A stretch of DNA of 49,336 nucleotides from Escherichia phage FCWL1. The stretch is taken from the sequence record PP558327; one strand, 5' to 3'. The notes under the pieces are model-generated. The model was not told the origin of the DNA and did not search any database. It saw nothing but the letters and a program-made list of their open reading frames with translations. Positions 18,795 through 35,531 of this stretch are shown one piece after another. The stretch's first letter is position 1. Every line of letters starts with the position of its first letter. Position numbers and translations under genes: made by a program.

Positions 18795-19112
18795 ATGGCT
18801 AAATTCAATTTCGTGTTGGGCCAACTTCCAGACTTCAAACTTCCGGTGACATTCACCATGCCAAACGGCGAGGATGCGACTATTATTTTTACAGTACGCC
18901 ACCTTTCCAGTAAAGAAGTGCAAGATATGTATGCGAAGCAGGGCGAAATGAATGATAGCGATTTCATCACTAAGATCGCGTCAGGCTGGAATCTGGAAGA
19001 AGAATTTAACGAAGAGAATGCGCGTAAACTGGTACAGTATTATCCTTCCGCAGCATACAATCTGACGGCAACTTACATCAAGGCGCTCGCCGGACACCGC
19101 GCAAAAAACTAA
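18795..19112 (+). CDS. tail assembly chaperone (G-like)
   Basis: 105-aa ORF between major tail and tape measure genes; ends at slippery A_AAA_AAC. Confidence 0.6.
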   Translation: MAKFNFVLGQLPDFKLPVTFTMPNGEDATIIFTVRHLSSKEVQDMYAKQGEMNDSDFITKIASGWNLEEEFNEENARKLVQYYPSAAYNLTATYIKALAGHRAKN

Positions 19113-19429: not shown

Positions 19430-19450
19430 GCCGCCGTTTGGCGGTTTTTT
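19430..19450 (+). terminator. intrinsic terminator before tape measure gene
   Basis: CCGCC-GTTTG-GCGG hairpin + T6. Confidence 0.5.
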
Positions 19451-19467
19451 CGTATATAGGGGGTTAT

Positions 19468-22341
19468 ATGGTTGATAAGGTAGCAGGTCTGTCGCTTGAC
19501 GTTGATGTGTCAACAGTGCAGCGCGCCGTCAAGTCACTGAAAGAGTTTTCAAAGGCCAACGACCAGGCCGCTGATTCTATGGGTTCTTTAATCAATGAGT
19601 CAGAGGTTGCAAAACAGAAGGCCAAAGAACACGCTGAACAACTCAGGCGTCAGAGAAAAGAGTATGAGGCCGTGGAGAAGGCAATCGATCCTACAGTATC
19701 AAAAATGGAAAGGTTGAAGATTGCATCTCAGCAGCTTGATAAACTCTGGCAGCAGGGAGTCGTTCCAGATGAGACATTTTTCCGTTTGGGTGAAATGCTG
19801 GATCTGCAAAACGCAAAACTTGCTCTCAGCCGGGCTATGCTTACGGAAGAAGGTCAGGCGGCATTGCAGGAAGCGAAAGCAAAAGAGCAGGCGGCAGCAC
19901 GAAGCAAGGCGTTCATGGATGCCCTGAATGGTCAAGTTAACGCGATCGGCAAGACTCATGCTGAATTGATGGAACTGAAAGCGGCTGAGCTTGGTTTATC
20001 GAAAGAAGCAGCACCACTAATCGCAAAACTTAAAGATCAAGGCCGGGCTATGAATGCAGCAGGTATTAGCGCCGGGGAATACAGGCAGGCAATGCGAATG
20101 CTTCCTGCACAGATTACCGACGTCGTTACATCTCTTGCATCCGGCATGCCAGTTTGGATGGTTGCCATCCAGCAAGGCGGTCAAATCAAGGACTCGTTCG
20201 GCGGGATCAGTAATACGTTTAAAGTGTTGCTGAGTTATATTAATCCAGTCACAGCAGGGGTTGGCGTTCTCGTTGGCTCGTTAGGTCTTCTGGCGAAAGC
20301 TGGTTATGACTCTTACAAGTCAATAACTGATATTCAGAATGCGCTTATTGAGACTGGCGGTTATGCAGGTGTTACGGCTGAAGAGCTTGATTCAGTGTCT
20401 AAAAAGATCGCACAGACAAGCAACTCAACCATTGGGAGTATTCGCGATATTGTAACGGAGTTGGCGAGTTCTGGTAAGTACACCCGCGAGCAGATCCAGA
20501 ACATCACTAAGGCTACCGCAGAGTGGTCAGCGTCAACAGGAAAATCAGCAAGCCAAATTATTTCTGAGTTCGACAAAATCGCAAGCGATCCGGTAAAAGG
20601 CCTGAAGAAGTTAAACGAGCAATATAATTTCCTTGAAAAAGGGCAACTTACCTATATCGATACATTAAGCCGGACGAAAGGAGAAACTGAGGCAGTATCA
20701 GAGGCTACCAAACTATTCGCAGACGTAATGGAAAAGCGAATGAAGTCGATCGCGGATAACGCTACTCCTCTGGAAAAGATGTGGAGCGATATTAAACAAT
20801 GGGCTTCGGACGCGTGGGGATGGGTTGGTGATCATACACTCGGGGCGCTAAACCTGATTGTCGACGTTGTTCAGGGTACAGTGATTCAGGTTAAAATGAT
20901 TCTTGCGAAGGGTGATGAGTACATCTCAAACTTTATCGCCTCAGCCATAAAGGCAACTCAGTCACTACCTGGAATGAGTGATTTCGGCGCTGATGTGCTG
21001 AAGGAGCAGGAGAACATCGTAAAAAGTTCTCGCGACAACTACGACCAGTTGGCTTCAGAGCTTGATGCTATTAACGCTCGCGTAGAAAAAGGCGAGATGG
21101 GATACGTTGAAGCGATGAAGCAGCGTCGAACTCTTGAAAAGCAGTACAGTGAGGAAACTAGGGAGGCAATAAGGAAAGAAGCAGAAGAGATCGAGAAGCG
21201 AAACCGAGAAAGAAATAAGCAGTCGAAAATTGTACGCTCACCGACAGAGCAATTCGACAAGGAGTTAATTTCACTCAAGGCTCAACTTAAGGTATTGCAG
21301 GAGCATAAGGAGATCGGTCAAAAACTTTCCGCGCAGAGAAAGGCGCTGTTTACTACCGAGGCTACGATTGCTGTTCTTCGTGAAGCCAGCTCTAAGCGTC
21401 AGTTGTCTGCGGAAGAAAAAGCGTTGCTGGCAAGTCAGGAGAGAGTTATTGAGCTTGCGAAACAGAAGGCCGAGATTGGCGATCAGATTGTTAAGCAACA
21501 ACAGTTGAATGATCTTACCGATAAATCTCTGAAGTTTGTCAATGAGATGACGGCAGCTACAGAACAGCTAAACGCGTCTCGAGGGATGAGCACCCGAGAA
21601 ATGGAAAGGCAAGCTGAGTTGGCTAAGATCACTACTGATTATATTAATGCAGGTGGCAGCGAAGGAGATGAAAAACTCCAGAACATGATCAAGGCACAAA
21701 ATGATTACTATGCTGCGGAAGATGCCAAGCGTTCTGACTGGTTAGCAGGTGCTGAAAGTGCATTTGCAGATTACGGCGATTCTGCAATGGATATGTACGG
21801 CAATGTGTATGATATCGCGTCAAGTTCACTTAACGGAATGAGTGACATGATGACCCAATTCCTGACTACAGGTAAGGCAAATTTTGAGGACTTTGCGAAA
21901 AACATCATTAGCATGATTATTAAGATGATTGCTCAAATGGTAATCTTCAATACGATCTCAGGCATGATGGGCGGTAAGACGTGGAGCTTTGCTGGAGGGG
22001 TGTCGCCTGGTGCTTCTGCGGTATCACAGGCAACTCCTACGCCTGCCGTCTCTGGTTTTAGGTCTTTATCTTCAGGCGTCGCTGTTACCTCGCTTGCTGC
22101 CGCTGCGGGTAGTGTTGCAACATCTGGATTTAACGCATCTAAATCCGCACCGAAGGCAGTGAACCAATCAGCAGGCGGGACGGTCGTTGATGTTAGGGGT
22201 ATGGAGGTTAAAGTTGACAACGGTTCAGATCCGAGAGGAATTTCTCAGGGCGTAGAAATGATGTTCAAAAAAATGATTCGAGAGTCTTGTTCACAGGGCG
22301 GAGAGGTTTACAATTACATTCAGGAAAAAACAGGAGGCTAA
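19468..22341 (+). CDS. tail tape measure protein
   Basis: 957 aa, coiled-coil-rich, hydrophobic central segments, Gly/Ala-rich C-terminus; downstream of G/GT. Confidence 0.85.
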
Positions 22342-22343
22342 TA

Positions 22344-22697
22344 ATGGCGACACTTGACACTTTCAGTTGGTGTACGCAGGTTCAAGGGGGCGGCGGCTCC
22401 CTTACCACTACCAACAATGACAGATCCATACAGTTTGGAAACGGCCACATGCAGCTTGCATCTTCTGGATTTAACACCACGCGACGCGAGTATTCAGTTG
22501 TCTATGCTGGGGAAGATTTCATGGCTGTTTACGACTTCTGTGATTCTCACCGCATTAAACCTTTCGCATGGACGCCGCCGGACGGGAAGATCGGAATATG
22601 GGTTGTTAAGCCTAACAGCCTGGGCGCGAAGCCAGTATCACGCGACGTGATGGAAATTAATGTCACGTTTATGGAGCAGTTTACATCTATGGAATAG
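22344..22697 (+). CDS. minor tail protein (lambda M-like)
   Basis: 117 aa immediately after tape measure; RBS AGGAGG. Confidence 0.65.
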   Translation: MATLDTFSWCTQVQGGGGSLTTTNNDRSIQFGNGHMQLASSGFNTTRREYSVVYAGEDFMAVYDFCDSHRIKPFAWTPPDGKIGIWVVKPNSLGAKPVSRDVMEINVTFMEQFTSME

Positions 22698-22713
22698 CAC
22701 TTCATGACAAAAG

Positions 22714-22735
22714 CCCGCCTTGCGCGGGTTTTTTT
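22714..22735 (+). terminator. terminator hairpin CCCGCCTTGCGCGGG + T7, followed by extended -10 TGTAGAAT
   Basis: Same hairpin sequence as at 24893. Confidence 0.6.
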
Positions 22736-22776
22736 GTAGCTGTAGAATGGTTGCAACTAAACAAGAGGAAAAGACA

Positions 22777-23559
22777 ATGAGCGAAAACAAAAAACTTTAT
22801 GATGAAGAAAGCGGGAAGAGCCTGTTTCACAACTGCCTTCAATCACTATACCCTGGAGAGATAATCACTCTGATTGAAGTTGATGGCAGCAAGTTCGGCG
22901 CTCAGGTGTACCGTTTCCACGGGGAAAATATCCAGTACACTCCAGAAGAAATCATGCAGGCACAGCAAACCGGAACGCTACCGCCGAAAGAAATCACCTT
23001 CCGTGGCGAGCAATACGGCGCGCGACCTTTCGGTATATCCGGGATCTCGTTCGACAGTTCCGGCAAGGCCACAAAGCCACAATTAACGGTGGCAAACATC
23101 GATAGTCGCGTATCTGCGATGATTCGTGCATATAACGGACTAATGCAAGCTAAGGTGACTATCTGGATCACTCAAAAGGACTTAATTCAACATAACGGCT
23201 CAATCGCTGACGGAGCTTACCGAAAACTGGTATACTATATCGAACGCCCGAGCTATGTCGATAAGAGTGTCGCCAGGTTCGATCTAACGTCTCCTTATGA
23301 TATGGATGGAATCATGATACCGTCACGACTAACTCAAAGCGTTTGCTATTGGGCGCAGAGGGGATGGTATAAAACCGGGAAGGGGTGCGGATACAACGGG
23401 CAAAATGGTTACTTCGATAAAGACAATAATCCGGTAGACGATCCTTCGCTGGATTTTTGCCCGGGAACGGTAACGGCCTGCCGCCTGAGATTCGGCGCAA
23501 ACAATGAATTGGATTTTGGCGGTTGCGCAGTCGCTTCACTACAGAGGAAAAATCAATGA
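22777..23559 (+). CDS. minor tail protein (lambda L-like)
   Basis: 260 aa; conserved Cys cluster near C-terminus (DFCPGTVTACRLRFGAN); synteny M-L-K-I-J. Confidence 0.7.
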   Translation: MSENKKLYDEESGKSLFHNCLQSLYPGEIITLIEVDGSKFGAQVYRFHGENIQYTPEEIMQAQQTGTLPPKEITFRGEQYGARPFGISGISFDSSGKATKPQLTVANIDSRVSAMIRAYNGLMQAKVTIWITQKDLIQHNGSIADGAYRKLVYYIERPSYVDKSVARFDLTSPYDMDGIMIPSRLTQSVCYWAQRGWYKTGKGCGYNGQNGYFDKDNNPVDDPSLDFCPGTVTACRLRFGANNELDFGGCAVASLQRKNQ

Positions 23560-24290
23560 TTAGTGCAAAAATTAAACTTGAAATTATGACTCACGCTCAA
23601 GAAGAATATCCTCGCGAATGCTGTGGGGTAGTCACCCAAAAGGGCCGCGTACAAAAATACCATCGCGTTGATAATGTACACCGCGATCCCGAGAATCATT
23701 TCATGATGGATGCTGTACAATACGCTTGCATTGAGGACGATGCGGAATCAACAACAATAGCAATTGTTCACAGCCACACAGGAGACGGGGCTACAACTCT
23801 ACCAAGCGCTCACGATACGTGCATGTGCAACGAGATGGAAGTTACCTGGATTATTGTTAGCGTGCCGGAAGGGGATATGCGATTTGTGAAGCCGGAGAAA
23901 TTGCCTCTGATTGGTCGTCCGTGGTCATTAGGATCATTCGACTGTTACGGTCTTGTTATGGCGTGGCACAAAGAGCACGGCGTAGAATTGCGCGATCGCC
24001 GATTGAATTTTGAATGGTGGAAACCTGAGTACGGAATTAATCTCTATCAGGATTATTACAAGCAGGATGGCTTCGTTGAGATTCCAGATCAGAATAATCC
24101 GTCATTCGGTGATATGGTAATCATGCAGATAGGGCAAAACGTTCCGGTATGGAACCATGCAGGGATTTACCTGGGAGATAATCAGATCTTGCATCATGCC
24201 TTCGGCAAGCTATCTCGTCGTGATATTTATTCCGGATGGTATCAGGATCATACTGTTTTAATCGTTCGCCATAAGGATCTTAAATTATGA
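23556..24290 (+). CDS. tail assembly protein (lambda K-like; JAB/MPN + NlpC/P60 domains)
   Basis: HSHTGDG (JAMM-like) motif and Cys/His peptidase-like C-terminal region; ATGA overlap with L-like gene. Confidence 0.7.
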   Translation: MISAKIKLEIMTHAQEEYPRECCGVVTQKGRVQKYHRVDNVHRDPENHFMMDAVQYACIEDDAESTTIAIVHSHTGDGATTLPSAHDTCMCNEMEVTWIIVSVPEGDMRFVKPEKLPLIGRPWSLGSFDCYGLVMAWHKEHGVELRDRRLNFEWWKPEYGINLYQDYYKQDGFVEIPDQNNPSFGDMVIMQIGQNVPVWNHAGIYLGDNQILHHAFGKLSRRDIYSGWYQDHTVLIVRHKDLKL

Positions 24291-24886
24291 ATGATGTAAA
24301 AGTAATTAAATTGTCAGGTTCACTTGGGAGACGCTTCGGCGTCTTTCACCGTTACGCTGTTGACTCTTACCCGGAAGCCATACGGGCGCTATCCAGTCAG
24401 GTGGACGGATTTAAAGAATACATGCAAAGCGAGGTAGGATCTCGTAGCAAGTTTTCAATATTTGTGGATGGCGTTAACGTGGGACACCATGAAGAGGAAA
24501 AATTCAAGTGCGCGAAAGAGATAAGAATCGTACCGATCCCTACTGGCTCTAAGACAGGAGGTCTATTTCAGGTTGTATTGGGCGCGGCAATAATGGTTGC
24601 AGCATTCTATACTGGCGGCGCGTCTCTGGCTTTAATGGGCACAATGTCCTCTTCTCTGTTTATGATGGGCGGCGCTATGGTGTTGGGTGGAGTGATGCAG
24701 ATGATTTCACCGCAGCCGGGAGGCGCAAACTTTGAAGTTCAATCAAGCAAGAATAAACCTTCTTACGCGTTCGGCGGTGCTGTCAATACGACGGCGGCTG
24801 GATACCCTCTCCCGGTCCCGTATGGATATCGCGCCGGAGGTGGCGCAACTTTCTCAGCAGGTTCTTATGCCGAGGATATGAGTTAA
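24287..24886 (+). CDS. tail assembly protein (lambda I-like)
   Basis: 199 aa with hydrophobic Gly/Ala-rich segment GLFQVVLGAAIMVAAFYTGGASLALMG; position between K-like and J-like. Confidence 0.65.
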   Translation: MNDVKVIKLSGSLGRRFGVFHRYAVDSYPEAIRALSSQVDGFKEYMQSEVGSRSKFSIFVDGVNVGHHEEEKFKCAKEIRIVPIPTGSKTGGLFQVVLGAAIMVAAFYTGGASLALMGTMSSSLFMMGGAMVLGGVMQMISPQPGGANFEVQSSKNKPSYAFGGAVNTTAAGYPLPVPYGYRAGGGATFSAGSYAEDMS

Positions 24887-24892
24887 AATTAA

Positions 24893-24927
24893 CCCGCCTT
24901 GCGCGGGTTTTTTTTCGCCTGTATAAT
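24893..24927 (+). terminator. terminator hairpin CCCGCCTTGCGCGGG + T8 followed by extended -10 TGTATAAT
   Basis: Hairpin identical to 22714; TGn-TATAAT immediately downstream. Confidence 0.6.
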
Positions 24928-24963
24928 GAGTCCACCGATAAATAGCACAAAAAGGTAAACATC

Positions 24964-27900
24964 ATGATTCAAAAAGTGATAAGTGGATCTAAAGGCGGCT
25001 CGCCTAAGCCTCATAATCCAGTTGAGATGGAAGACAATCTAATCTCAATCAACAAAATCAAGATCCTGTTAGCTGTATCTGATGGTGAAATTGACGAAAC
25101 ATTCAGCCTGAAGCAGTTGATGTTTAACTCAGTCCCGGTGCAAAACGAGGATGGATCGTTCAACTTCGAAGGGGTAAAGGCTGAGTTCAGGCCGGGAACT
25201 CAGACGCAGGAATACATCAAGGGCATGGAGGATAGTTCCAGCGAGGTAACTGTAAATCGTGAGGTTACTACCGATAACCCATACACGATCTCAGTGACCA
25301 ATAAAACACTATCGGCAATACGCATCAAAATGTTCATGCCTCGCGGCGTACGAATTGAAAGTAACGGTGATAAAAATGGCGTAAGAGTTGAGTATGAGGT
25401 GCAACAAGCTGTTGATGGCGGTTCGTTTGAGACTGTTCTTACTGACGTAATTGAAGGCAAAACAATGTCAGGTTACGACAGAAGTCGACGTGTAAACCTG
25501 CCTAGCTTTAACAACCAGGTAATATTCAGAGTTGTTCGAAAGACTCCAGACTCTAACGACTCTAACGTTGTTGATGCGATCCAGGTAAAGAGCTATGCCG
25601 AGGTGATTGATGCCAAATTCCGTTACCCTCTGACAGGTCTTCTTTTCGTCGAGTTCGACTCGAAGATGTTCCCAAACCAGTTACCTACGATCTCAATTCG
25701 TAAGCGCTGGAAGATTGTAAGCGTTCCGTCGAACTACGACCCAGAATCGCGAACATACAACGGCAATTGGGATGGCACTTTCAAAAAAGCATGGACGAAC
25801 AATCCGGCGTGGGTTCTTTATGACCTGATGATTAATCAGCGTTACGGCTTGGATCAGAAAGAGCTTGGTATCGCTGTCGATAAATGGGCGCTCTACGAGG
25901 CTGCGCAATATTGCGATCAGATGGTTCCTGATGGGAAGGGCGGGACGGAACCTCGATACCTTTGCGACGTGATAATCCAGTCTCAGACTGACGCTTACAA
26001 GGTTATTCGAGATATTTGCTCAATCTTTCGAGGTATGAGCTTTTGGAATGGCGAAAGCATTTCGGTAATCATCGATAGGCCGCGTGAGCCTGCGTACATC
26101 TTCACTAACGACAACGTGGTTAATGGTGACTTCTCCTACACGTTTGCAAGCGAAAAGAGCATGTACACGACGTGTAATGTGATGTTTGACGACGAGCAAA
26201 ACATGTATCAGCAGGACGTTGAGCCAGTATTCGATCGTGAGGCTACTCTACGGTTCGGGAACAACGTAACGAGCATTACAGCGATCGGCTGCACACGTCG
26301 AAGCGAGGCCAACCGACGCGGGAGATGGATTCTGAAAACTAACCTCCGCAGCACTACGGTAAACTTCGCTACCGGACTTGAGGGTATGATTCCGACAATC
26401 GGAGATGTTGTGGCAATAGCTGATAACTTCTGGTCAAGTAACTTGACGATGAACCTATCAGGGCGCTTGCTCGAAGTATCCGGTAGTCAGATTTTCTTGC
26501 CGCTCCGGGTGGATGCACGCGCGGGTGACTTTATTATCGTAAATAAGCCAGATGGCAAGCCCGTGAAGCGCACAATATCAAGTGTTAGTGCGGATGGTAA
26601 GACTATAGAGGTTAACATTGGCTTTGGCTTTCCTGTGAAGCCTAACACGGTATTCGCTATCGACCGCACCGACATTGCGTTACAGCAGTACGTCGTGACA
26701 AAAATCGATAAGGGCGATGATGATGAGGAATTTACCTACAAAATAACGGCGGTGGAGTACGATCCTAACAAGTACGATGAGATTGATTACGGAGTTAATA
26801 TCGACGACCGACCGACGAGCATCGTTGAACCAGATCAGATCCCTAGACCGGAAAACGTGCAAGTGTCCTCAGAGTCACGAATCGTCCAGGGGATGAGCGT
26901 AGAAACGATGATTGTTAGCTGGGATAAAGTGCCGTACGCAGTTTTCTATGACGTCCAGTGGCGAAAGGATAACGGCAACTGGCAAAATGTACCGCAGACA
27001 GCAAACAAAGAGGTATACGTTGAAGGTATTTACGCTGGCAACTATCAGGTTCGCGTTCGCTCCGTAGCTGGTTCCGGTACGACTTCAGGATGGTCAAATG
27101 TCGTAGCTGCGACGCTGACGGGCAAACAAGGTGAGCCGGGTGGACCGATTAACCTTACAGCTACGGATGATGTTGTTTTTGGTATCCGTACAAAATGGGG
27201 GTTCTCTGATGGTTCTGGAGATACGGCCTATACAGAGTTGCAACAGTCACCAGATGGAACAGTGGATAACGCAAGTTTGCTTTCTTTGATTCCGTACCCG
27301 CAGCATGAGTATTATCACTCACCGATGCCTGGAGGGAATATTGTTTGGTATCGTGTAAGGACGGTTGATAGGATCGGTAACGTGTCTCAGTGGACTGATT
27401 TTGTCAGAGGTATGGCATCAACAAACGTTGACGATATCATTGGGGAGATTTCTGTCGATATCGAAAACTCGCCGGGTTACGAGTGGCTTGTTGATAACGC
27501 AACCGACAACGCGGCGCAGAACGCAGCTAACGCAGAGGCAGCAATAGAAAACGCGCTCGCCAATGACAAAGACGCGATCTACATGAAGAAGGAGAACGGA
27601 AAACGAAAAGCTGAGTACACGAAATCACTGAAACTTATTGCTGATGAGACGCAGGCGCGAGTGACGGCGATCGAGCAATTGAAGGCAAGTTTTGGCGATC
27701 AGATTAGCGCTAGCAACAGCGAATTGCGTGAAGTTATCGCAACTGAGACTGGAGCGCTATCGCGTGAAATTGACCAACTCAGGGCAGAGATTGGTGATGA
27801 TATCCAGGCAAGTTTGACCGATATCAGAGAGGCTATAGCAAACGAGACTGAGGCGAGAACGCAAGCTGACTTGTCGTTAAGCGCGAGGCTTGGGAATAAT

Positions 27901-28383
27901 GAGGCAGCACTTTCTCAAAAACTTGATTCGTGGAGCAATGCAGATTCGACTGGTGCAATGTACGGCGTCAAGCTCGGTCTGAAGTATAACGGCCAAGAAT
28001 ACAGTGCAGGCATGGCTATGTCTCTGATTGGTTCCGGAGCTGCGGTTAAGGCGCAGATTTTGTTTGAGGCATCACGATTTGCCATCATGAATGGAATGAA
28101 TGGTCAGACTCAGTACCCATTCGTTGTTGAGAATGGCCAGGTTATTTTAAGTAGCGCGATTATCAAGAACGGATTCATCACGAATGCGATGATTGGTAAT
28201 GTTATTCAATCGAATAACTATGTCGTTAACAAGGCTGGCTGGATACTTGACAAGGGTGGAACATTAGAAAACTACGGAAGTGACGCTGAGGGTGCAATGA
28301 AGCAAACTAATACCACAATATCTGTTAGGGATGCGAGTGGTCGCCTGAGGGTTCAGATTGGCAGGTTGACTGGTTCATGGTAA
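24964..28383 (+). CDS. central tail fibre / host specificity protein (lambda J-like)
   Basis: 1139 aa; conserved J-family segment NPAWVLYDLMINQRYGLDQ...; fibronectin-like repeats; coiled-coil C-terminal region. Confidence 0.85.
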   Translation: MIQKVISGSKGGSPKPHNPVEMEDNLISINKIKILLAVSDGEIDETFSLKQLMFNSVPVQNEDGSFNFEGVKAEFRPGTQTQEYIKGMEDSSSEVTVNREVTTDNPYTISVTNKTLSAIRIKMFMPRGVRIESNGDKNGVRVEYEVQQAVDGGSFETVLTDVIEGKTMSGYDRSRRVNLPSFNNQVIFRVVRKTPDSNDSNVVDAIQVKSYAEVIDAKFRYPLTGLLFVEFDSKMFPNQLPTISIRKRWKIVSVPSNYDPESRTYNGNWDGTFKKAWTNNPAWVLYDLMINQRYGLDQKELGIAVDKWALYEAAQYCDQMVPDGKGGTEPRYLCDVIIQSQTDAYKVIRDICSIFRGMSFWNGESISVIIDRPREPAYIFTNDNVVNGDFSYTFASEKSMYTTCNVMFDDEQNMYQQDVEPVFDREATLRFGNNVTSITAIGCTRRSEANRRGRWILKTNLRSTTVNFATGLEGMIPTIGDVVAIADNFWSSNLTMNLSGRLLEVSGSQIFLPLRVDARAGDFIIVNKPDGKPVKRTISSVSADGKTIEVNIGFGFPVKPNTVFAIDRTDIALQQYVVTKIDKGDDDEEFTYKITAVEYDPNKYDEIDYGVNIDDRPTSIVEPDQIPRPENVQVSSESRIVQGMSVETMIVSWDKVPYAVFYDVQWRKDNGNWQNVPQTANKEVYVEGIYAGNYQVRVRSVAGSGTTSGWSNVVAATLTGKQGEPGGPINLTATDDVVFGIRTKWGFSDGSGDTAYTELQQSPDGTVDNASLLSLIPYPQHEYYHSPMPGGNIVWYRVRTVDRIGNVSQWTDFVRGMASTNVDDIIGEISVDIENSPGYEWLVDNATDNAAQNAANAEAAIENALANDKDAIYMKKENGKRKAEYTKSLKLIADETQARVTAIEQLKASFGDQISASNSELREVIATETGALSREIDQLRAEIGDDIQASLTDIREAIANETEARTQADLSLSARLGNNEAALSQKLDSWSNADSTGAMYGVKLGLKYNGQEYSAGMAMSLIGSGAAVKAQILFEASRFAIMNGMNGQTQYPFVVENGQVILSSAIIKNGFITNAMIGNVIQSNNYVVNKAGWILDKGGTLENYGSDAEGAMKQTNTTISVRDASGRLRVQIGRLTGSW

Positions 28384-28389
28384 TATCAA

Positions 28390-28415
28390 GGGCATCGAGA
28401 GATGCTCTTTTCTTT
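28390..28415 (+). terminator. hairpin (GCATC-GAGA-GATGC) + T-rich tract
   Basis: Stem-loop with GNRA-type loop and TCTTTTCTTTT; RBS of next gene abuts. Confidence 0.45.
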
Positions 28416-28428
28416 TGGAGGATTTATT

Positions 28429-28734
28429 ATGGCGTACGGTATATCAACTTGGGACGCAAATGGCGTTTATAATAACTATGGAATTAAGCCTGTTACGGTT
28501 GTTGGTTGGAACTTTTTGTCAGCAGGACAGAATTCAGCATCGTTCAGCTATCAAGTTCCTCCTGGTATGCATGTGAACTACGTTATAAGCCTTGACAATG
28601 GCGCCATTAGTGGGCCTGGCAGGAAAATTATTGCTAGCGGTAATACGATAACAGTAACGCCAACAAACTCACCCGGGCCAAACGTGTACCCATCATCAAA
28701 CTGTTACTTAATAGCATATCTGGAGAATGATTAA
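28429..28734 (+). CDS. tail-associated protein (paralog pair member 1)
   Basis: N-terminus MAYGISTWDANGVYN resembles that of next gene (MSYGAFIDVNGNPFI). Confidence 0.45.
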   Translation: MAYGISTWDANGVYNNYGIKPVTVVGWNFLSAGQNSASFSYQVPPGMHVNYVISLDNGAISGPGRKIIASGNTITVTPTNSPGPNVYPSSNCYLIAYLEND

Positions 28735-29423
28735 TGTCATACGGTGCTTTTATAGATGTAAACGGAAACCCATTCATAACCCCGTTATCCACGCCATTCG
28801 CCTTATATGAGAGAGGGGAAATTCAATCAGTAAATGTTAGTGGTTCACAGGTTGCGGAGAGATATGTTCGGATACCTACAGGTGTTCCGGTTATAGCTTT
28901 TTGCAAAACAACAAACACGCAGCAGGGGACCGCGCTTTCAGCCTTTACTTTCAGAAGCGGACCCAATGTTGGAACTGTTTATATAAGGGGGACAAATCCA
29001 GCAAACCAATCATACACGCTAACATACTACATATTTGCCATATTTGAGCAGTCACTACCGAGCTGGGGTATGGCAATATGGGATTCGTCAGGAAAGCTAG
29101 TGCTGACAAATGAGACAAAAGTCCTTAGTGATTTGGTTACAATCGGCACTCCTGGATACGCTGGAGGTGGATTAAACATAGACACAACACTCAGCGGAAG
29201 CTACGCAGTTGTTCCAACTATACTTGGCAACTATCAAATTGTTATTGGCAGGCTGCCAACTGGGCAACCCATAATAGGAAACTCAACAGCAGGCAGCTCA
29301 TGCAGATACAACGGGAGCACAACGAGAATAAATGCAGCAGCAACCACTGCGGCAGGTCGGATATTGAACACCACGAATAATGGAAATATTATAACAGCAA
29401 TAAAAACGGCAGCATACGACTAA
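28734..29423 (+). CDS. tail-associated protein (paralog pair member 2)
   Basis: 229 aa, Gly/Thr/Asn-rich, last gene of tail module. Confidence 0.45.
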   Translation: MSYGAFIDVNGNPFITPLSTPFALYERGEIQSVNVSGSQVAERYVRIPTGVPVIAFCKTTNTQQGTALSAFTFRSGPNVGTVYIRGTNPANQSYTLTYYIFAIFEQSLPSWGMAIWDSSGKLVLTNETKVLSDLVTIGTPGYAGGGLNIDTTLSGSYAVVPTILGNYQIVIGRLPTGQPIIGNSTAGSSCRYNGSTTRINAAATTAAGRILNTTNNGNIITAIKTAAYD

Positions 29424-29446
29424 GCCCCTTTCGGGGCTTTTCTTTT
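29422..29446. terminator. terminator hairpin (AAGCCCC-TTTC-GGGGCTT) between convergent genes
   Basis: GC stem with T-tract downstream on + strand; sits between tail module end and antisense lipoprotein gene. Confidence 0.6.
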
Positions 29447-29672
29447 ACATCGAGCAATCGTGAGACTTGAAGTTATTCTCTGATACGTAATGGAATGAGA
29501 ATGGATACCCAGCACGTAACAGCATCTCATCACCGCGCATCTTTGATCCAAAAACGGAAACCGAGTACTCTGCGTCACCTGATTCATAAATCGCAGTACA
29601 AGTGCGCTCAGGCATCGATGAGCAACCAGTCAGGATGAATGCCGCAGCAATAATGGTGATTAATTTTTTCAT
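29445..29672 (-). CDS. outer-membrane lipoprotein, Cor/Llp-like superinfection-exclusion candidate
   Basis: Only minus-strand gene; N-terminus MKKLITIIAAAFILTGCSS is a lipoprotein signal with lipobox LTGC; GAGGA SD; own sigma70-like promoter; adjacent to receptor-binding tail genes. Confidence 0.5.
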   Translation of the reverse strand: MKKLITIIAAAFILTGCSSMPERTCTAIYESGDAEYSVSVFGSKMRGDEMLLRAGYPFSFHYVSENNFKSHDCSM

Positions 29673-29701
29673 TTGCATGTCCTCGTCGTTAGTGTGATTG
29701 C

Positions 29702-29730
29702 ATTGTATGTCGCATTTACTTTTATTGCAA
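29702..29730 (-). promoter_or_regulatory. sigma70-like promoter for antisense lipoprotein gene (TTGCAA - 17 bp - TACAAT on minus strand)
   Basis: -35/-10 hexamers with 17-bp spacer read on minus strand, about 25 nt upstream of start codon. Confidence 0.45.
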
Positions 29731-29749
29731 TAGCGCAATTACAATTTTT

Positions 29750-30170
29750 TTTCGTGTAACGGGTGTCTATTTTTGTAACTGGAGATGGTGTTACAAAATC
29801 TACCCAATCCGAACGCAGGTAGATATGATAAAAACTCTATATAATATATATAGATAGATAATATTTAATTTTAGCTTTATATATATAATTATTGTTGTGT
29901 AACAGTTGTCTATCGTGTAACTGGTGATTTGATTGATTCGTCAAATTTCTATCATATATGTTCAAAATTTAATCAATATGGATTCTACTTGTAGCTATCC
30001 CTGTATTTCTAAGAAAAAGCGGTTACAAGTATTACACAGTAGACATCACATAAAAATAGACTTAAGCCATTGATTCCGTTAATGCTGGTTGTAACTTGAG
30101 CGATATAGACACGCTATTACACACCAATTACATGTATCCGATTGACTAAACGCTGTTAATGGCTATAATG
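29750..30170. repeat. AT-rich control region with flanking ~28-bp direct repeats (GTGTAAC-N3-TGTCTAT-N-GTAACTGG), candidate origin/early promoter region
   Basis: Direct repeats at ~29753-29782 and ~29896-29924 bracket an AT core containing CTATATAATATATATAG (identical to 225-241); TTACACAC/ATAGACA motifs. Confidence 0.5.
30142..30169 (+). promoter_or_regulatory. sigma70-like promoter (TTGACT - 16 bp - TATAAT) for recombination operon
   Basis: Near-consensus hexamers about 30 nt upstream of exonuclease gene. Confidence 0.5.
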
Positions 30171-30200
30171 GATTCATCGTAAACGAGGGAGATAAACGCA

Positions 30201-31265
30201 ATGTTCCAGGTGTTCACATCAAGTCAGCTTTCTAATGACGAGTATCATAGCAACGAAGGTTGGGCGGCAGAGTATGTAAGCGGTTCTAGCCTTGCAGAAA
30301 TTTATCAGACTTGCCCGGCTAACTGGAGATTCAAGAAGAATGAGACAACGAAGGCGCTGGAGTTTGGTACTCAGTCGCATACCAACTTTGAGAGCCGAGA
30401 TCTGTTTACTGCAACGTATGCACGTTGTCCGGCTCCGTCAGAGTTCAAGGATCTGATTACGTCACAAGCCGCACTGGCTGCAAAATTAAAATCTTTCGGC
30501 CTGAAAGGTACATCCGGTAAGCAGTACCCGGACCTCATCAAGATGATGGTTGATTGCGGTGAAGAGCTAAACGTCCAATATCTGATCGAGTTGATTGCGG
30601 AAGCAGAGGCGCGCTCTGAAGGAAAGAAATTGGTTGACGCTGACAAATACGACGCTTGCATGAAGATGAGAGCAATCCTTGAACAAAATCCTGATCACGA
30701 AGCGTGCATCAACAGTGAAACGGCGCAGCGTGAGATTTCAATCTTCGGTGAGATATCCGGCGTCAAGGTTAAGGTTCGACTTGACCATCTGGACTACAAA
30801 GAGAATGTTCCAGGTCGTGTCCTGACTGGTTATGATGAGAATGGAGATCCGGTATTCGAAGATGTTATTTTCCCTGAAGCACTGATTATCACTGACTTCA
30901 AAACAACAATGAGCGCCAACCCGTTAGAGTTCCCGAGACTGGCATACAATCACGGGTATTATCTGAAAATGGCCTTGCAGCATGATCTGCTACGACGCGC
31001 AATCCAGGCTGGCGCTTTTGAAGGCAACTTCCCGGAAGATATCCCGATCGTAGTTCGATTGCTGGCTCAGGAGAAAAAAGAGCCTTACATCGCACTTGCT
31101 TACCGTATGACTATGGAGCAAATCAGGATCGGTCGTAGCCAGTATGTTAGCGTAGTCCACACTTACAAGGCTTGCTCTGAAATGGATGTTTGGCCTGGGT
31201 ACGCTGGCGACGCAAGCGAGATTGAACTTGAAACGCCATCATGGGTGCGTTACCAAAATAAGTAA
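30201..31265 (+). CDS. PD-(D/E)XK exonuclease (RecE/lambda Exo-like recombination exonuclease)
   Basis: Motifs RLDHLDY...IITDFKTT (D...D/ExK); first gene of operon with ERF and SSB. Confidence 0.6.
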   Translation: MFQVFTSSQLSNDEYHSNEGWAAEYVSGSSLAEIYQTCPANWRFKKNETTKALEFGTQSHTNFESRDLFTATYARCPAPSEFKDLITSQAALAAKLKSFGLKGTSGKQYPDLIKMMVDCGEELNVQYLIELIAEAEARSEGKKLVDADKYDACMKMRAILEQNPDHEACINSETAQREISIFGEISGVKVKVRLDHLDYKENVPGRVLTGYDENGDPVFEDVIFPEALIITDFKTTMSANPLEFPRLAYNHGYYLKMALQHDLLRRAIQAGAFEGNFPEDIPIVVRLLAQEKKEPYIALAYRMTMEQIRIGRSQYVSVVHTYKACSEMDVWPGYAGDASEIELETPSWVRYQNK

Positions 31266-31339
31266 ACGGCACAAATAGCTAAACAAATAATTAATGAGGT
31301 GTTATAATGCACCTCATACACCAATCAGGAGAAGTTAAG

Positions 31340-31987
31340 ATGCAATTATCACCAGAAACAAACGAAATTCTTCCCGCACTGTTCAATGCTCGCAACAAAT
31401 TTGCTAAAGCAAAGAAGGACGCAAAAAACAATCACCTGAAAAATTCATACGCAACCCTTGATGCAATGATGGCGGCCGTTAGCCCGGCGCTCACCGATAA
31501 CGATATTATGATCCTGCAATCAATGCTGGACACCAGCACGGAAACAACCTTCCATCTTGAAACGATGCTGATTCACAAATCCGGGCAATGGGCCAAGTTC
31601 TTCATGATGATGCCTATTGCAAAGCGCGATCCTCAAGGTGTAGGCTCAGCGATGACGTATGCGCGGCGTTACTCATTAGCCGCAGCGCTGGGGATTAGCC
31701 AGAGTGATGACGATGCTCAGCTTGCAGTGAAATCTGTCAAGGACTGGAAAAAAGAACTTGATGCGTGTGAAGATATCGAATCACTGAAAGAGGTATGGGC
31801 TAACGCTTACCGCCAGACGGACACGGCAAGCAAGTCAATCATTCAGGATCACTACAACGCACTTAAGGCTAAGTTTGAGATCGGTAAAGCTCGTGGTATT
31901 CGCCCGGCGCAACCGGAGCAGAAAAAACAGGTTGAAGCAACGAGCGCGAAGCCTGTACAATCTCAATCAATCACCAACTTCGAATAA
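31340..31987 (+). CDS. erf: ERF-family single-strand annealing protein
   Basis: Conserved ERF signature ...GSAMTYARRYSLAAALGI...; RBS AGGAGAAG. Confidence 0.7.
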   Translation: MQLSPETNEILPALFNARNKFAKAKKDAKNNHLKNSYATLDAMMAAVSPALTDNDIMILQSMLDTSTETTFHLETMLIHKSGQWAKFFMMMPIAKRDPQGVGSAMTYARRYSLAAALGISQSDDDAQLAVKSVKDWKKELDACEDIESLKEVWANAYRQTDTASKSIIQDHYNALKAKFEIGKARGIRPAQPEQKKQVEATSAKPVQSQSITNFE

Positions 31988-32033
31988 TCATCAGGACGGC
32001 TTCGGTCGCCCATAAATTTTAGGAGAGAAAATC

Positions 32034-32447
32034 ATGCATATTATCACTGGAGAGATCCGAAAAGAACCTAAGATTCTTGAACGTAACGGCGGGAATACTT
32101 ATATAATCGAACTGGCAGAGAGCTACAAGCCTCGAGATGGAGATCGAGAATACACCAACTACACATTCTTTTTTAGCGACGGTGGAAAGCCTGGCCTTGC
32201 TGACTGGTATCGTGAAGCATTCCAGGTTGGTCGCGTCGTATCAGTATCATGCGAGACGTTGAAGATCTCATCCCGTGAACACAATGGAACGGTTTACAAT
32301 TCATTGCAGGCCGCTGACTTCCCGAAGTTGGTATTTAGTCAACGAGGACAAAGCAATCAACAACGAGCACCGCAGCAACAACAGCGAACGCAATCACAGC
32401 CACAGCCAAATCCTCAATCAACTTTCGATGATGATATCCCGTTCTAA
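32034..32447 (+). CDS. ssb: single-stranded DNA-binding protein
   Basis: OB-fold-sized N-domain, Gln/Pro-rich linker, C-terminal acidic tip DDDIPF identical to bacterial SSB tails. Confidence 0.8.
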   Translation: MHIITGEIRKEPKILERNGGNTYIIELAESYKPRDGDREYTNYTFFFSDGGKPGLADWYREAFQVGRVVSVSCETLKISSREHNGTVYNSLQAADFPKLVFSQRGQSNQQRAPQQQQRTQSQPQPNPQSTFDDDIPF

Positions 32448-32453
32448 CAAAAA

Positions 32454-32474
32454 TCCCCGCAATGCGGGGATTTT
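32454..32474 (+). terminator. intrinsic terminator after ssb
   Basis: TCCCCGC-AAT-GCGGGGA hairpin + T4. Confidence 0.5.
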
Positions 32475-32475
32475 A

Positions 32476-33981
32476 ATGGCTTTATATCGACGCGGTACTG
32501 CATCAATGGATGCAGACGGAACGGTTCACGGAACCGATACAAAATGGAAAGACCAGCTTGCTCTTATTCGCGTAGGTGCAACTATCGTGTTCCTTGAGCA
32601 ACCAATTAAGCTAGCTGTGATTAGCGATATCGTTAGTGATACAGAATTAAAGGCTATCTCTACTGATGGTCAGACTGCCGATGACGGTAAGTATGTGATC
32701 CTACTTAATGACTCTCTAACCGTTAACGGATTAGCTCAAAACGTCGCCGAGACTCTTCGATACTATCAAAGCAAAGAGACTGAGATTGCGGCAGCTATAG
32801 ACCTGATAAATCAGCTTGATATGAATAAACTTGAGCAAATAGTTGCTGATGTGAATCAGGCGAAATCTGATTCTCAAGCTGCGCAAAATCAGGCTGAATT
32901 AGCGCGTGACGATGCGGTAAGCTCAAAAGATGCGGCTGCGGTAAGTGCTCAAGAAGCAAAAGACGCAGCTAACAGCATCAATGCTGAAAATCTTTTAACT
33001 AAGGATGGCAATTTAGCTGGTCTTGAGGATAAAAAAGAGTCAAGAAAAAATATTGGGTTAGGTGAAAATGATGCTGTTAACTTTCTTGCTATTAACACCA
33101 CTGGCGCTATAGGTGCAGGAAGGAATTCATGGGACGGTTCTAGCTGGGGTAGTCAGTCCATATTGTCATCATTGATGATTATGTCACCTGATGGAATATC
33201 TACGCCAGGTATTTACGTCAGAAAAGAACGTAGCGATAATGGTTATGCTGGGGCTTTATTATTTTATGAGGGGGCAAACTACTTCGAGACTAACAATAGA
33301 TTCAGAGCTAATCAGTTTTTATGCCAGAAAACATCTATGGGTTACAACCAGATGTGGTCTGCTTCATGCTTCCAGGGTAATGCTTACACCGCTGATAGTG
33401 GTGCTGAAAACTATCAATCACTTATTGCTGGATCGTGTGGCACCAGAGGTCAGGGATACGTTGGCGGCGTAGCATTTGGCATGATGACTACGGGTAATCC
33501 TGAATGGCCCAGGGCACAAATATCAGTAGGCACTCAAGATAGGGATGGAGCAGGCAATATTGGTCTGCAAATGCATTTCAGGTTTATGGCTTCAGGGCAA
33601 ATATCTTACGCTGGACCGCAAGGGGCTGGAAGTTTCCAACAGGTTCCGGCATCTGACAGAAATATAAAGCACGGCATAAAGGATGATGAATCAAGCATTG
33701 CATACAACAACATAAAATCAATGAGATTTAGGAACTTTATATTTAACGATGATGAGCAAGAAAGGGTAAGGAGAGGTGTTATAGCTCAGGAGATAGAAGA
33801 GATCGACAATCTATATGTTAAGAGAAGGGTGTATGAGAGCCACGAGCTAAACGGGCCAAAAGTTGAAAGGCTTGAGCTTGATACAACTCCTTTATTGCTT
33901 GACACTATGAGAGCTTTACAGGATACAATAAAGAAAGTTGAAGAGTTACAAGAAGAGATAAAAATGTTGAAGTCCAAATGA
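32476..33981 (+). CDS. side tail fibre with C-terminal intramolecular chaperone (peptidase S74-like) domain
   Basis: C-terminal ASDRNIKHGIKD...IAQEIEEI... coiled-coil matches auto-cleaving chaperone domains of tail fibres/endosialidases; start placed after terminator (track ORF 32275 over-extended across ssb). Confidence 0.65.
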   Translation: MALYRRGTASMDADGTVHGTDTKWKDQLALIRVGATIVFLEQPIKLAVISDIVSDTELKAISTDGQTADDGKYVILLNDSLTVNGLAQNVAETLRYYQSKETEIAAAIDLINQLDMNKLEQIVADVNQAKSDSQAAQNQAELARDDAVSSKDAAAVSAQEAKDAANSINAENLLTKDGNLAGLEDKKESRKNIGLGENDAVNFLAINTTGAIGAGRNSWDGSSWGSQSILSSLMIMSPDGISTPGIYVRKERSDNGYAGALLFYEGANYFETNNRFRANQFLCQKTSMGYNQMWSASCFQGNAYTADSGAENYQSLIAGSCGTRGQGYVGGVAFGMMTTGNPEWPRAQISVGTQDRDGAGNIGLQMHFRFMASGQISYAGPQGAGSFQQVPASDRNIKHGIKDDESSIAYNNIKSMRFRNFIFNDDEQERVRRGVIAQEIEEIDNLYVKRRVYESHELNGPKVERLELDTTPLLLDTMRALQDTIKKVEELQEEIKMLKSK

Positions 33982-34081: not shown

Positions 34082-35002
34082 ATGATGTTTCAGAAAGAGG
34101 ACGTTTTGCCGTACATGAAGGGGTTATGGCGCGAGGCTTTCCAATCAATCTGCGGATTGCCGAATGATGTTTTTAATAAGAAACACCAACCTTGCCCTAA
34201 CTGCGGGGGTAAGGACCGCTTTCGCTGGACTGATAACCTTAACACTCCGGGCGACGGCGGTGCGATCTGCAACTCATGCGGTAACGACTCTGGAGTCGGT
34301 TGGTTGATTAAATTAACTGGTATGCCGTACAGCGAATGTATAAATATCCTGGGAAGATTTCTCGGCAAGGTTCCGCAGGAATACATTGTCAAGGTCAACA
34401 AAAAAGCGCGAAGAACTCCGGTAGCTGGCGTCAATGTTATGATGGCAGAACACGAGGCAGTGATGAAAGTTATGGAGCGCACAGAGAAGCGCATAAACAC
34501 ACCTCTAAGCATGTTTGAGTCGCTACCTACTGAATCATTCGACGTTGGCGTAAAACGTCGAGAGGATGGCGGCGAGAGTGTATTTCACACCATACCATGT
34601 CAACTTGTACACGAGGACGGTCTTGATGAAGAGTTTTGCAATATTTTGATTATTGATGAGGAGGGTAGGGAGTCATTTTATGCAAAGAAATACACAAGTT
34701 GCTCGGTTGCCGTGACTGGTAAAACTGAAAAAGCGATCTACTTATGCCTTAATTGGATTGATGCTCAGCATATTGCATTTCACACAAAGCAAGAGGTATG
34801 GGCCTGCTTCACTCCTGAAAATCTAGAAATGGTTGCGTACAGATACAAGGGAGATCGGGAGGTAAGGGTGGCGTGCGAACCATCTGATAAAGAAACTTTA
34901 TACATGGCAGACGACAGACAATTAAAAATAATCATCCCGAATCAGGGAGGATACCGCTCAGGAATGCAAGCTAAGTTATTCTCAGCAAGTGATCTACTAT
35001 AA
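34082..35002 (+). CDS. primase-type zinc-ribbon protein (putative DNA primase)
   Basis: CPNCGGKDRFRW...GDGGAICNSCG Zn-ribbon typical of phage primase N-termini; start codon uncertain (hairpin directly upstream, no SD). Confidence 0.5.
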   Translation: MMFQKEDVLPYMKGLWREAFQSICGLPNDVFNKKHQPCPNCGGKDRFRWTDNLNTPGDGGAICNSCGNDSGVGWLIKLTGMPYSECINILGRFLGKVPQEYIVKVNKKARRTPVAGVNVMMAEHEAVMKVMERTEKRINTPLSMFESLPTESFDVGVKRREDGGESVFHTIPCQLVHEDGLDEEFCNILIIDEEGRESFYAKKYTSCSVAVTGKTEKAIYLCLNWIDAQHIAFHTKQEVWACFTPENLEMVAYRYKGDREVRVACEPSDKETLYMADDRQLKIIIPNQGGYRSGMQAKLFSASDLL

Positions 35003-35051: not shown

Positions 35052-35531
35052 ATGTTAACCCGCTACGCGTCGTTTGTTATGAGTATTCAACGTATCGCAG
35101 AGTCAACTGGTGAAATCGATAAACGTCACATCAATGGTAACAACGGAACACGACGCGGTAAAGATAAAAAGCCTCGACAGCGCTGCGGCTTCTATATTCA
35201 TAAAGAAGAAACACGCGCCGGATTGCGAGCGCGACTTGATGCGCTTATCGAATATTATGGTGGCCCTGCGGCCTGCGCAAAAGCTCTAAAGGTTAGCAAT
35301 CAGACGGTGCAAGGCTGGAAAGAACGCAACATGATTTCGTGGCAAGGTGCTGAAGCTGCGCATCGTGCTTACCGACGACAGGGGTGTAAAGGATTTCGTG
35401 CCGCATGGTTGCGATTCGACCTGAAGTTTGACGGTAACGGCAAGTGCCTTGAGAAGCGATGCAAGAACAAGAAATTTATGCGCGTCGTGAAGAAGGAAGA
35501 TATCGGGACGACCAATAGCATTTTTAGTTAA
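35052..35531 (+). CDS. HTH DNA-binding protein (Cro/YdaS-like), candidate regulator
   Basis: Segment YGGPAACAKALKVSNQTVQGWKERNMISWQGAEAA matches Cro/YdaS-type helix-turn-helix pattern; start uncertain. Confidence 0.4.
   Translation: MLTRYASFVMSIQRIAESTGEIDKRHINGNNGTRRGKDKKPRQRCGFYIHKEETRAGLRARLDALIEYYGGPAACAKALKVSNQTVQGWKERNMISWQGAEAAHRAYRRQGCKGFRAAWLRFDLKFDGNGKCLEKRCKNKKFMRVVKKEDIGTTNSIFS

What the first reader, a model, noticed from the sequence alone, without database searches (positions are those of the whole stretch)
29445..29730. Lone antisense lipoprotein gene with its own sigma70 promoter next to receptor-binding genes: Cor/Llp-type superinfection exclusion candidate
This is the only minus-strand gene. 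It encodes a 75-aa protein with a lipoprotein signal and lipobox (MKKLITIIAAAFILTGCSS). It has its own promoter (TTGCAA - 17 bp - TACAAT, minus strand) and converges on the end of the tail-fibre module across a shared terminator. Small outer-membrane lipoproteins in this position in T1-, phi80- and T5-like phages (Cor, Llp) block the phage's own receptor. Constitutive host-type promoter and opposite orientation fit a moron expressed independently of late transcription.
Basis: partly seen in the sequence, partly recalled or inferred. Interest (0 to 1): 0.5.

Follow-up and report, generated by a model that had tools for sequence, protein, structure and literature searches.

The report
Known Cor exclusion lipoprotein of T1-like phage
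The small reverse-strand gene is the already known cor gene of T1-like coliphages, a lipoprotein that shuts the phage's own FhuA receptor, and it is the only reverse-strand gene here only because the window has been rearranged.

Summary
Window 29445..29672 (-) encodes a 75-aa prolipoprotein with lipobox LTGC. TTGCAA-17-TACAAT lies upstream and a hairpin separates it from the converging tail-tip cassette.

The protein passes NCBI's curated model for phage exclusion lipoprotein Cor (57.5 bits, cutoff 31) and PHROG 1119 (E 2e-30). It is 91% identical to T1 Cor. The DNA is 100% identical to Tunavirus JMPW2, whose RefSeq record annotates it as Cor. The genes upstream are the FhuA-type receptor cassette of T1 (95-98% identical). 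T5 Llp is a remote relative: same PHROG, hhalign probability 93%, and the best full-length fold match (TM 0.65).

Two corrections follow.

1. "Only minus-strand gene" is an artefact. The window is phage phiD2-2 with every annotated minus-strand CDS flipped in place. cor escaped because that record does not annotate it. In the natural genome about 20 other genes share its strand, though cor is still alone inside a 32-kb plus-strand block.
2. The terminator has a U-tail only on the plus strand.

The promoter is a weak match (9/12), but a -10 hexamer keeps its position across four genera. Novelty: already known. Interest: low.

The parts
29445..29672 (-). cor coding sequence: a 75-aa prolipoprotein plus stop. 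Signal peptide is residues 1-16, the lipidated Cys is residue 17, and the mature domain is residues 17-75.
   Evidence: ORF and translation; NF047972 at 57.5 bits vs cutoff 31; phrog_1119 at E 1.9e-30; 91% identical to T1 Cor; dN/dS 0.10-0.13
29622..29672 (-). Signal peptide and lipobox (MKKLITIIAAAFI-LTGC). Ser at +2 predicts sorting to the outer membrane.
   Evidence: Pfam LPAM_1 over residues 1-18; L14, G16 and C17 are invariant in the alignment with T1, N15 and three other phages
29681..29684 (-). Shine-Dalgarno GAGG, 8 nt upstream of the ATG
   Evidence: Sequence; T1 annotates an RBS at the same place
29702..29730 (-). Predicted sigma-70 promoter TTGCAA-17-TACAAT. The -10 hexamer ends 29 nt before the ATG.
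   Evidence: Scan, 9 of 12; identical in 8 distinct Tunavirus loci; a -10-like hexamer lies 29-31 nt from the ATG in Tunavirus, Hanrivervirus, Sertoctavirus and Dhillonvirus. Not shown experimentally.
29422..29439 (.). Hairpin AAGCCCC-UUUC-GGGGCUU between the converging genes. It is a canonical intrinsic terminator for the plus-strand tail cassette only; its U-tail overlaps the cor stop codon.
   Evidence: Terminator scan scores it on the + strand only; folds of both strands; T1 annotates a rho-independent terminator here
28734..29423 (+). 229-aa gene of the receptor-specificity cassette (T1 orf31 homologue, phrog_425), converging on cor
   Evidence: 97% identical to T1 orf31 and 52% to N15 gp23; phrog_425 at E 4e-67
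28402..28734 (+). Gene of about 101 aa in the same cassette (T1 orf32 homologue, phrog_557)
   Evidence: 98% identical to T1 orf32 and 58% to N15 gp22; phrog_557 at E 3e-31
24964..28383 (+). J-like tail tip protein that heads the cassette
   Evidence: 95% identical to T1 tail fibre/J

Best explanation
This is cor, the superinfection-exclusion ('lytic/lysogenic conversion') lipoprotein of a T1-like coliphage (genus Tunavirus; the nearest natural genome is phiD2-2/JMPW2).

Inferred mechanism:
1. The gene is transcribed from its own promoter in the cor-exo intergenic region, on the strand opposite to the tail genes.
2. The 75-aa precursor is exported and lipidated at Cys17. Signal peptidase II cleaves it. 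[quoted passage not shown]
3. The 59-residue mature domain is a small beta fold clamped by a Cys25-Cys73 disulphide. Like its remote homologue T5 Llp, it binds the periplasmic face of FhuA and locks the receptor in a state that phages cannot use.
4. The infected cell, and its debris after lysis, therefore no longer take up or inactivate FhuA-dependent phages, including this phage's own progeny.

Shown here: family membership, lipoprotein signal, conserved Cys pair and AGYPF motif, Llp-like predicted fold, linkage to the FhuA-type RBP cassette, and purifying selection.

Inferred from published work on relatives: FhuA inactivation (phi80, N15, HK022, mEp167 Cor) and periplasmic binding with allostery (T5 Llp crystal structure).

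Not known: promoter activity, timing of expression, and any direct test of a T1-type Cor.
For: Family membership: NF047972 above its curated cutoff and phrog_1119 at E 1.9e-30 over the full length. Orthology: 100% DNA identity to JMPW2/phiD2-2 and 92% to T1, whose CDS CPTT1_048 is annotated 'lysogenic conversion protein Cor'; aa identity is 91% to T1 and 36% to N15 Cor. Invariant L14, G16, C17, M20, C25, A54-G-Y-P-F58 and C73; C1, C9, G39 and P41 of the mature form are invariant across 77 sequences. Receptor cassette: J 95%, orf32 98% and orf31 97% identical to FhuA-dependent T1. The order J / ~100 aa / ~225 aa / cor recurs in Tunavirus, Hanrivervirus, Sertoctavirus, Dhillonvirus and N15. Relation to Llp: the PDB sequence search with the Cor profile finds 8a60_B Llp at E 7e-4; hhalign gives 93% probability and E 3.5e-7 with both Cys aligned; BLASTP gives 33% over 54 aa; Llp falls in phrog_1119; the AF2 model (pLDDT 89.4) has its best TM-score and rmsd against Llp bound to FhuA (TM 0.65, 3.0 A, all 59 columns). 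Literature: Cor of HK022/N15/phi80 inactivates FhuA (PMC3594210, citing Uc-Mass 2004); Llp binds the periplasmic face of FhuA and shares its disulphide with Cor (PMC9586334); the same cassette has been described in T1/KanT1 and associated with FhuA across the BASEL phages (PMC13164509).
Against: I found no experiment on a T1-type Cor in the library; the functional data come from temperate-phage Cor proteins that are only 33-36% identical to this one. No Foldseek hit reaches E <= 1e-3, and Tudor/chromo-like barrels rank above Llp by E-value. The promoter is a weak consensus match, no better than chance on its own. PMC13164509 reports Cor-like proteins in some BtuB-dependent phages, so Cor family membership alone does not fix the target receptor.
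Confidence: 0.9

Rival explanations
1. The molecule is the same, but its selected role differs. Cor in a virulent phage mainly protects released progeny from being inactivated on FhuA in lysed-cell debris and vesicles, as argued for T5 Llp. Excluding competitors would be secondary.
For: T1-like phages are virulent, so there is no lysogen to protect. PMC13164509 and the T5 literature (Decker 1994, cited in PMC9586334) give this rationale. In all 27 distinct virulent T1-like/Dhillonvirus loci examined, cor is kept convergent with the RBP cassette.
Against: Nothing here separates the two benefits, and they are not mutually exclusive.
Confidence: 0.4
2. This Cor blocks a receptor other than FhuA (for example BtuB or LptD), or it needs the two upstream cassette proteins to act.
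For: Cor-like proteins occur in BtuB-dependent phages, and the KanT1 authors speculate that the two upstream proteins take part in exclusion (PMC13164509). An Rtp accessory protein excludes via LptD (bioRxiv 10.64898/2026.04.02.716166).
Against: The whole cassette is 95-98% identical to that of FhuA-dependent T1. Receptor screens assign this cassette family to FhuA and treat the upstream protein as the RBP (PMC8594841; 10.64898/2026.04.02.716166).
Confidence: 0.05
3. It is a lysis lipoprotein (o-spanin-like) or a generic small lipoprotein, not an exclusion factor.
For: There are weak PHROG hits to Rz-like spanins (E 0.02-0.4), confined to the signal peptide.
Against: Those hits cover residues 1-24 only. 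The full-length match is to Cor. The lysis cassette lies elsewhere in the genome: the holin is at record position 334, which maps to window ~41.4 kb.
Confidence: 0.01
4. It is a chance ORF with a fortuitous promoter-like match.
For: Many minus-strand ORFs of 90 aa or more occur by chance in the window. A 9/12 promoter match is common.
Against: dN/dS is 0.10-0.13. There are 86 homologues in the protein database, 417 viral loci and curated family models.
Confidence: 0

Closest known systems
Cor of phage T1 (AAP49969.1, CPTT1_048) and other Tunavirus Cor proteins, e.g. JMPW2 (RefSeq NC_041873.1)
   Same: 91% aa identity to T1, and identical DNA to JMPW2 over window 29300-29900. Same length, start, RBS, promoter hexamers, terminator hairpin and neighbours.
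   Different: Nothing of substance: 7 amino-acid substitutions against T1. The gene is simply missing from the annotation of the nearest genome, OR861627.1.
Cor of temperate phages N15, phi80, HK022 and mEp167 (the experimentally studied members)
   Same: Same family (NF047972). Same lipobox, Cys pair and AGYPF motif. Same cassette with the ~100-aa and ~225-aa genes downstream of J.
   Different: Only 33-36% identical. In temperate phages cor lies downstream of the cassette on the same strand, whereas in T1-like phages it is convergent. It is expressed from a prophage there and necessarily during lytic growth here.
Llp, lytic conversion lipoprotein of phage T5 (PDB 8A60 chain B, 7QJF)
   Same: A small outer-membrane lipoprotein encoded next to the FhuA-binding protein on the opposite strand, with its own promoter. 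Same PHROG. hhalign probability 93% with both Cys aligned. Predicted fold TM 0.65, rmsd 3.0 A.
   Different: About 20-33% identity only. Llp does not hit any Pfam family. Its neighbouring RBP (pb5) is unrelated to the T1-type cassette, and llp is divergent from the RBP gene rather than convergent.

Membership tests
Cor phage exclusion lipoprotein (NCBIfam NF047972 / PHROG 1119) | Full-length match to the curated family model above its cutoff | tested here: met
   NF047972 at 57.5 bits vs cutoff 31, residues 1-74; phrog_1119 at E 1.9e-30, residues 1-74
Cor phage exclusion lipoprotein (NCBIfam NF047972 / PHROG 1119) | Signal peptidase II signal with a lipobox Cys; a non-Asp residue at +2 (outer-membrane sorting) | tested here: met
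   LPAM_1 over residues 1-18; LTGC-SS in the sequence. Lipidation itself cannot be tested here.
Cor phage exclusion lipoprotein (NCBIfam NF047972 / PHROG 1119) | Conserved Cys pair and AGYPF motif in a mature domain of about 60 residues | tested here: met
   C25, C73 and A54-F58 are invariant against T1, N15 and three other phages; they are invariant or nearly so across 77 sequences
Cor phage exclusion lipoprotein (NCBIfam NF047972 / PHROG 1119) | Encoded at the end of the tail-tip J / receptor-specificity cassette | tested here: met
   J, the 110-aa gene and the 229-aa gene lie immediately adjacent; the same layout is seen in 5 lineages
Cor phage exclusion lipoprotein (NCBIfam NF047972 / PHROG 1119) | Expression inactivates FhuA (resistance to T1/phi80/T5 and colicin M; reduced ferrichrome uptake) | not testable with these tools
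   Known for HK022/N15/phi80 Cor (PMC3594210). No experiment on a T1-type Cor was found.
Llp (T5 lytic conversion lipoprotein) | Detectable sequence homology to T5 Llp | tested here: met
   Remote only: BLASTP 33% over 54 aa, E 2e-5 for the single comparison; hhalign 93% probability; Cor profile against PDB sequences finds 8a60_B at E 7e-4; both proteins fall in phrog_1119
Llp (T5 lytic conversion lipoprotein) | Same fold as the solved Llp structure | tested here: inconclusive
   Against 8a60_B the model gives TM 0.65/0.62 and rmsd 3.0 A over all 59 columns, the best TM and rmsd in the list. The Foldseek E-value is 0.15, however, and no hit reaches E <= 1e-3. Two papers report the same similarity (PMC13164509; 10.64898/2026.03.26.714494).
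Llp (T5 lytic conversion lipoprotein) | Paired with a pb5-type receptor-binding protein (oad), transcribed divergently | tested here: not met
   The neighbours here are the T1-type cassette (phrog_557, phrog_425), and cor is convergent with it. The T5 layout is shown.
Llp (T5 lytic conversion lipoprotein) | Binds the periplasmic face of FhuA and remodels the plug and loops | not testable with these tools
   Shown for Llp (PMC9586334). Only predicted by AF3 for KanT1 Cor (PMC13164509).

The most novel reading that the evidence does not exclude
In virulent T1-like phages the fixed convergent layout may act as a timing device. The hairpin terminates only the tail-cassette transcript, so cor transcription would run antisense into the receptor-binding genes. 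Early cor expression and late RBP expression would then interfere with each other by transcriptional collision or antisense RNA. The temperate relatives lack this feature because their cor is co-oriented. The evidence is compatible with this reading but does not test it.
Probability: 0.08. Interest if true: 0.4.

Novelty: already known. Interest (0 to 1): 0.08.

Why it matters
Biologically it adds little. cor at this position in T1-like phages has been annotated since the T1 genome paper (record AY216660 cites PMID 14972552). The FhuA-linked cassette and the Cor-Llp relationship were described in 2021-2026 papers.

Two practical points are worth recording. First, the nearest GenBank genome (OR861627.1) lacks the cor annotation, so cor is still missed by routine gene calling. 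Second, the window is an in-silico rearranged genome, so any inference from strand bias or operon layout in this window is unsafe outside the colinear block 6530..32475.

Tried and rejected
- Pfam holds no Cor family. It gave only the generic lipobox model and a sub-threshold 'Phage_lipoprotein' hit confined to the signal peptide.
- Foldseek against the PDB gave no statistically significant hit. I used TM-score and rmsd, and say so.
- I looked for a conserved -35 across genera and found none. Only the -10 position is conserved.
- I asked whether cor is a local hot spot of divergence against T1. It is not: 89% nt identity, the same as ssb.
- Wietzorrek 2006 (PMC1367250), which first compared these cassettes, is not held in the library. 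A search for phiD2-2 found only an unrelated Argonaute paper.
- The spanin and chance-ORF readings were rejected (see rival explanations).
- I did not use the metagenome or genome-contig scans, the representative-protein search or a second structure prediction, because the answer was already clear.

Full report
**What is in the sequence**

On the minus strand an ATG at 29672 opens a 75-codon frame that ends with TAA at 29447..29445. GAGG lies 8 nt upstream of the ATG. The product begins MKKLITIIAAAFILTGCSS. This is a classical signal-peptidase-II signal: a basic n-region, a hydrophobic core and the lipobox L-T-G-C. Pfam's lipid-attachment model matches residues 1-18. Ser at +2 predicts release to the outer membrane, by the established '+2 rule' of Lol sorting.

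The gene converges on a 229-aa plus-strand gene that ends at 29423. The 21-nt gap between them is filled by a 7-bp GC-rich hairpin.

**Is it more than chance?**

The ORF is real. Against other Tunavirus copies it shows 10-17 synonymous but only 4-8 non-synonymous differences, giving dN/dS of 0.10-0.13. The protein has 86 relatives in the protein collection and 417 confirmed loci in viral contigs.

The promoter match alone is not beyond chance. It scores 9 of 12, and matches of that quality are about as common in shuffled sequence (11 found against 6.2 +/- 2.3 expected in 2.1 kb). Three things support it.
- Necessity: the gene points away from both neighbours, so it needs a promoter within 29673..30200.
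- The hexamers are identical in eight distinct Tunavirus loci.
- A -10-like hexamer sits 29-31 nt from the ATG in four genera whose Cor proteins are only 47-59% identical: TACAAT, TATAGT, TATAAT and AATACT.

The -35 is not conserved across genera. No transcript data were found.

**The terminator**

The hairpin forms in both RNAs. Only the plus-strand RNA carries the U-run (UUUUCUUUU); the cor RNA continues AGUCGUAUGCUG. The scan scores it on the plus strand only. It is therefore the terminator of the tail cassette, as annotated in T1. Whether it stops cor transcripts is open.

**'The only minus-strand gene' is an artefact of the window**

The nearest natural genome is Escherichia phage phiD2-2 (OR861627.1, 49,337 bp; the window is 49,336 bp). 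A full comparison shows >99.9% identity. However, each annotated minus-strand CDS or overlapping CDS cluster (GP05-GP18 and GP69-GP71) is reverse-complemented in place, essentially at its CDS boundaries. The spacers between them keep their original orientation. GP16 and GP20-21 are also moved.

As a result, five of nine flipped genes that I checked have their native Shine-Dalgarno stranded downstream in reverse. The lateral-fibre gene now starts directly after a terminator hairpin. No natural inversion does this.

T1, SH2 and JMPW2 all have the fibre/primase/regulator block on the other strand. cor was left alone because OR861627.1 does not annotate it: there is nothing between 37725 and 38503. 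The cor neighbourhood itself (window 6530..32475) is colinear with the natural genome, so the local anatomy is native. In nature cor is still the single reverse gene inside about 32 kb of plus-strand genes (GP19-GP68).

**What it is**

The DNA of 29300..29900 is 100% identical to phiD2-2 and to JMPW2, whose RefSeq record calls the gene 'Cor superinfection exclusion protein'. It is 92% identical to T1, where the CDS is 'lysogenic conversion protein Cor'.

The protein passes NCBI's curated equivalog model NF047972 'phage exclusion lipoprotein Cor' (57.5 bits, cutoff 31). It matches PHROG 1119 over its full length (E 1.9e-30). It is 91% identical to T1 Cor, 50-59% to Cor of other Drexlerviridae and Dhillonvirus, and 33-36% to Cor of N15, HK140/HK225 and mEp043/mEp213.

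Invariant positions are the lipobox, Met20, Cys25, Cys73 and the motif A-G-Y-P-F.

**Surroundings**

Upstream lie the J-like tail tip protein (95% identical to T1), a ~101-aa protein (98% to T1 orf32; phrog_557) and a 229-aa protein (97% to T1 orf31; phrog_425). The same order recurs in egaa, BrunoManser, KarlBarth and N15.

Published receptor screens identify this locus downstream of gpJ as the receptor-specificity module of small siphoviruses, with an FhuA-specific allele family that includes T1 (PMC8594841; bioRxiv 10.64898/2026.04.02.716166). A 2026 paper describes exactly this 'cor cassette' in T1, KanT1 and phi2013 and its association with FhuA use (PMC13164509).

In all 27 distinct T1-like/Dhillonvirus loci I examined, cor is convergent with the 229-aa gene. 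In the temperate N15/HK-type loci it lies downstream on the same strand.

**Relation to Llp**

- The Cor-family profile finds T5 Llp (8a60_B) as its only PDB sequence hit below E 0.001. That alignment covers the signal peptide and the first third of the mature domain.
- hhalign gives 93% probability over 71 columns, with both cysteines aligned.
- T5 Llp itself scores in PHROG 1119 (E 1e-19).
- An AlphaFold2 model of the mature domain is confident (pLDDT 89.4, four beta strands).
- Foldseek gives no significant E-value against the PDB. Even so, Llp bound to FhuA is the best match by TM-score and rmsd (0.65/0.62, 3.0 A over all 59 columns).

This agrees with two recent reports (PMC13164509; bioRxiv 10.64898/2026.03.26.714494). 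It also agrees with the statement that Llp shares its Cys11-Cys58 disulphide with the Cor family (PMC9586334). Cor and Llp are best regarded as one remote-homology family with two well-separated branches, and this gene is on the Cor branch.

**How it most likely works**

- The first steps follow from the sequence features shown here and from established lipoprotein biogenesis.
- FhuA inactivation by Cor is published for HK022, N15 and phi80 (PMC3594210, citing Uc-Mass 2004).
- Periplasmic binding with allosteric closure of the extracellular loops is shown structurally only for Llp (PMC9586334), and is inferred for Cor.
- In a virulent phage the benefit is probably both exclusion of competitors and protection of progeny from adsorbing to debris (PMC13164509).

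I found no direct test of a T1-type Cor.

**Verdict**

The argument from strand uniqueness rests on an artefact, and the 'shared terminator' is one-sided. Novelty: already known. Interest: low.

Noticed in passing
whole window; flipped blocks e.g. 32476..33981, 34082..35002, 35079..35531, 42549..48271; relocated 894..1127 and 48437..49194: The window is not a natural gene arrangement. It is phage phiD2-2 (OR861627.1) with each annotated minus-strand CDS or overlapping CDS cluster reverse-complemented in place. The spacers are left unflipped and a few genes are moved. Native ribosome-binding sites of the flipped genes are stranded downstream, and a terminator hairpin abuts the ATG at 32476.
   Followed up: yes
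window 29755..30095 (cor-exo intergenic region): Five of the eight plus-strand TGTAAC copies in the 49-kb window lie in this 340-bp stretch, as TGTAAC-N-GG (29755, 29774, 29898, 29916, 30090). All five are conserved in T1, and three of them differ from T1 at the N position. Related inverted copies lie nearby. They are candidate binding sites for a phage regulator or a replication protein.
   Followed up: partly
window 30142..30169 (+): The best sigma-70 match in the region, TTGACT-16-TATAAT (11 of 12), is divergent from cor and lies just upstream of the exonuclease/Erf/SSB genes. It is identical in T1.
   Followed up: partly
OR861627.1 37750..37974 (= window 29448..29672): cor is missing from the annotation of the nearest GenBank genome and is labelled 'hypothetical protein' in several others (ADB-2, LeonhardEuler, CLB_P3, T1 MK213796).
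   Followed up: yes
window 29841..29889: An AT-only stretch with nested TATATATA inverted repeats lies in the middle of the divergent intergenic region and is conserved in T1. Its function is unknown; it could be a bend, an UP-like element or an unwinding element.
   Followed up: no
window 29933..30073 (+): A 46-aa ORF with a TTG start corresponds to the small CDS CPTT1_049 annotated in T1. I gathered no evidence that it is a gene.
   Followed up: no
phage records MG065688, MG065679, MG065637: Records named 'Campylobacter phage' carry T1-like cor genes (56-85% aa identity). They look like coliphage contaminants or mislabelled records.
   Followed up: no
L010 2501..2734 (T5 llp); NC_028840.1 slur09: T5 Llp scores in the PHROG named for Cor, and a T5-like Llp homologue is annotated as 'Cor' in RefSeq. 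Database names therefore already merge the two branches.
   Followed up: yes
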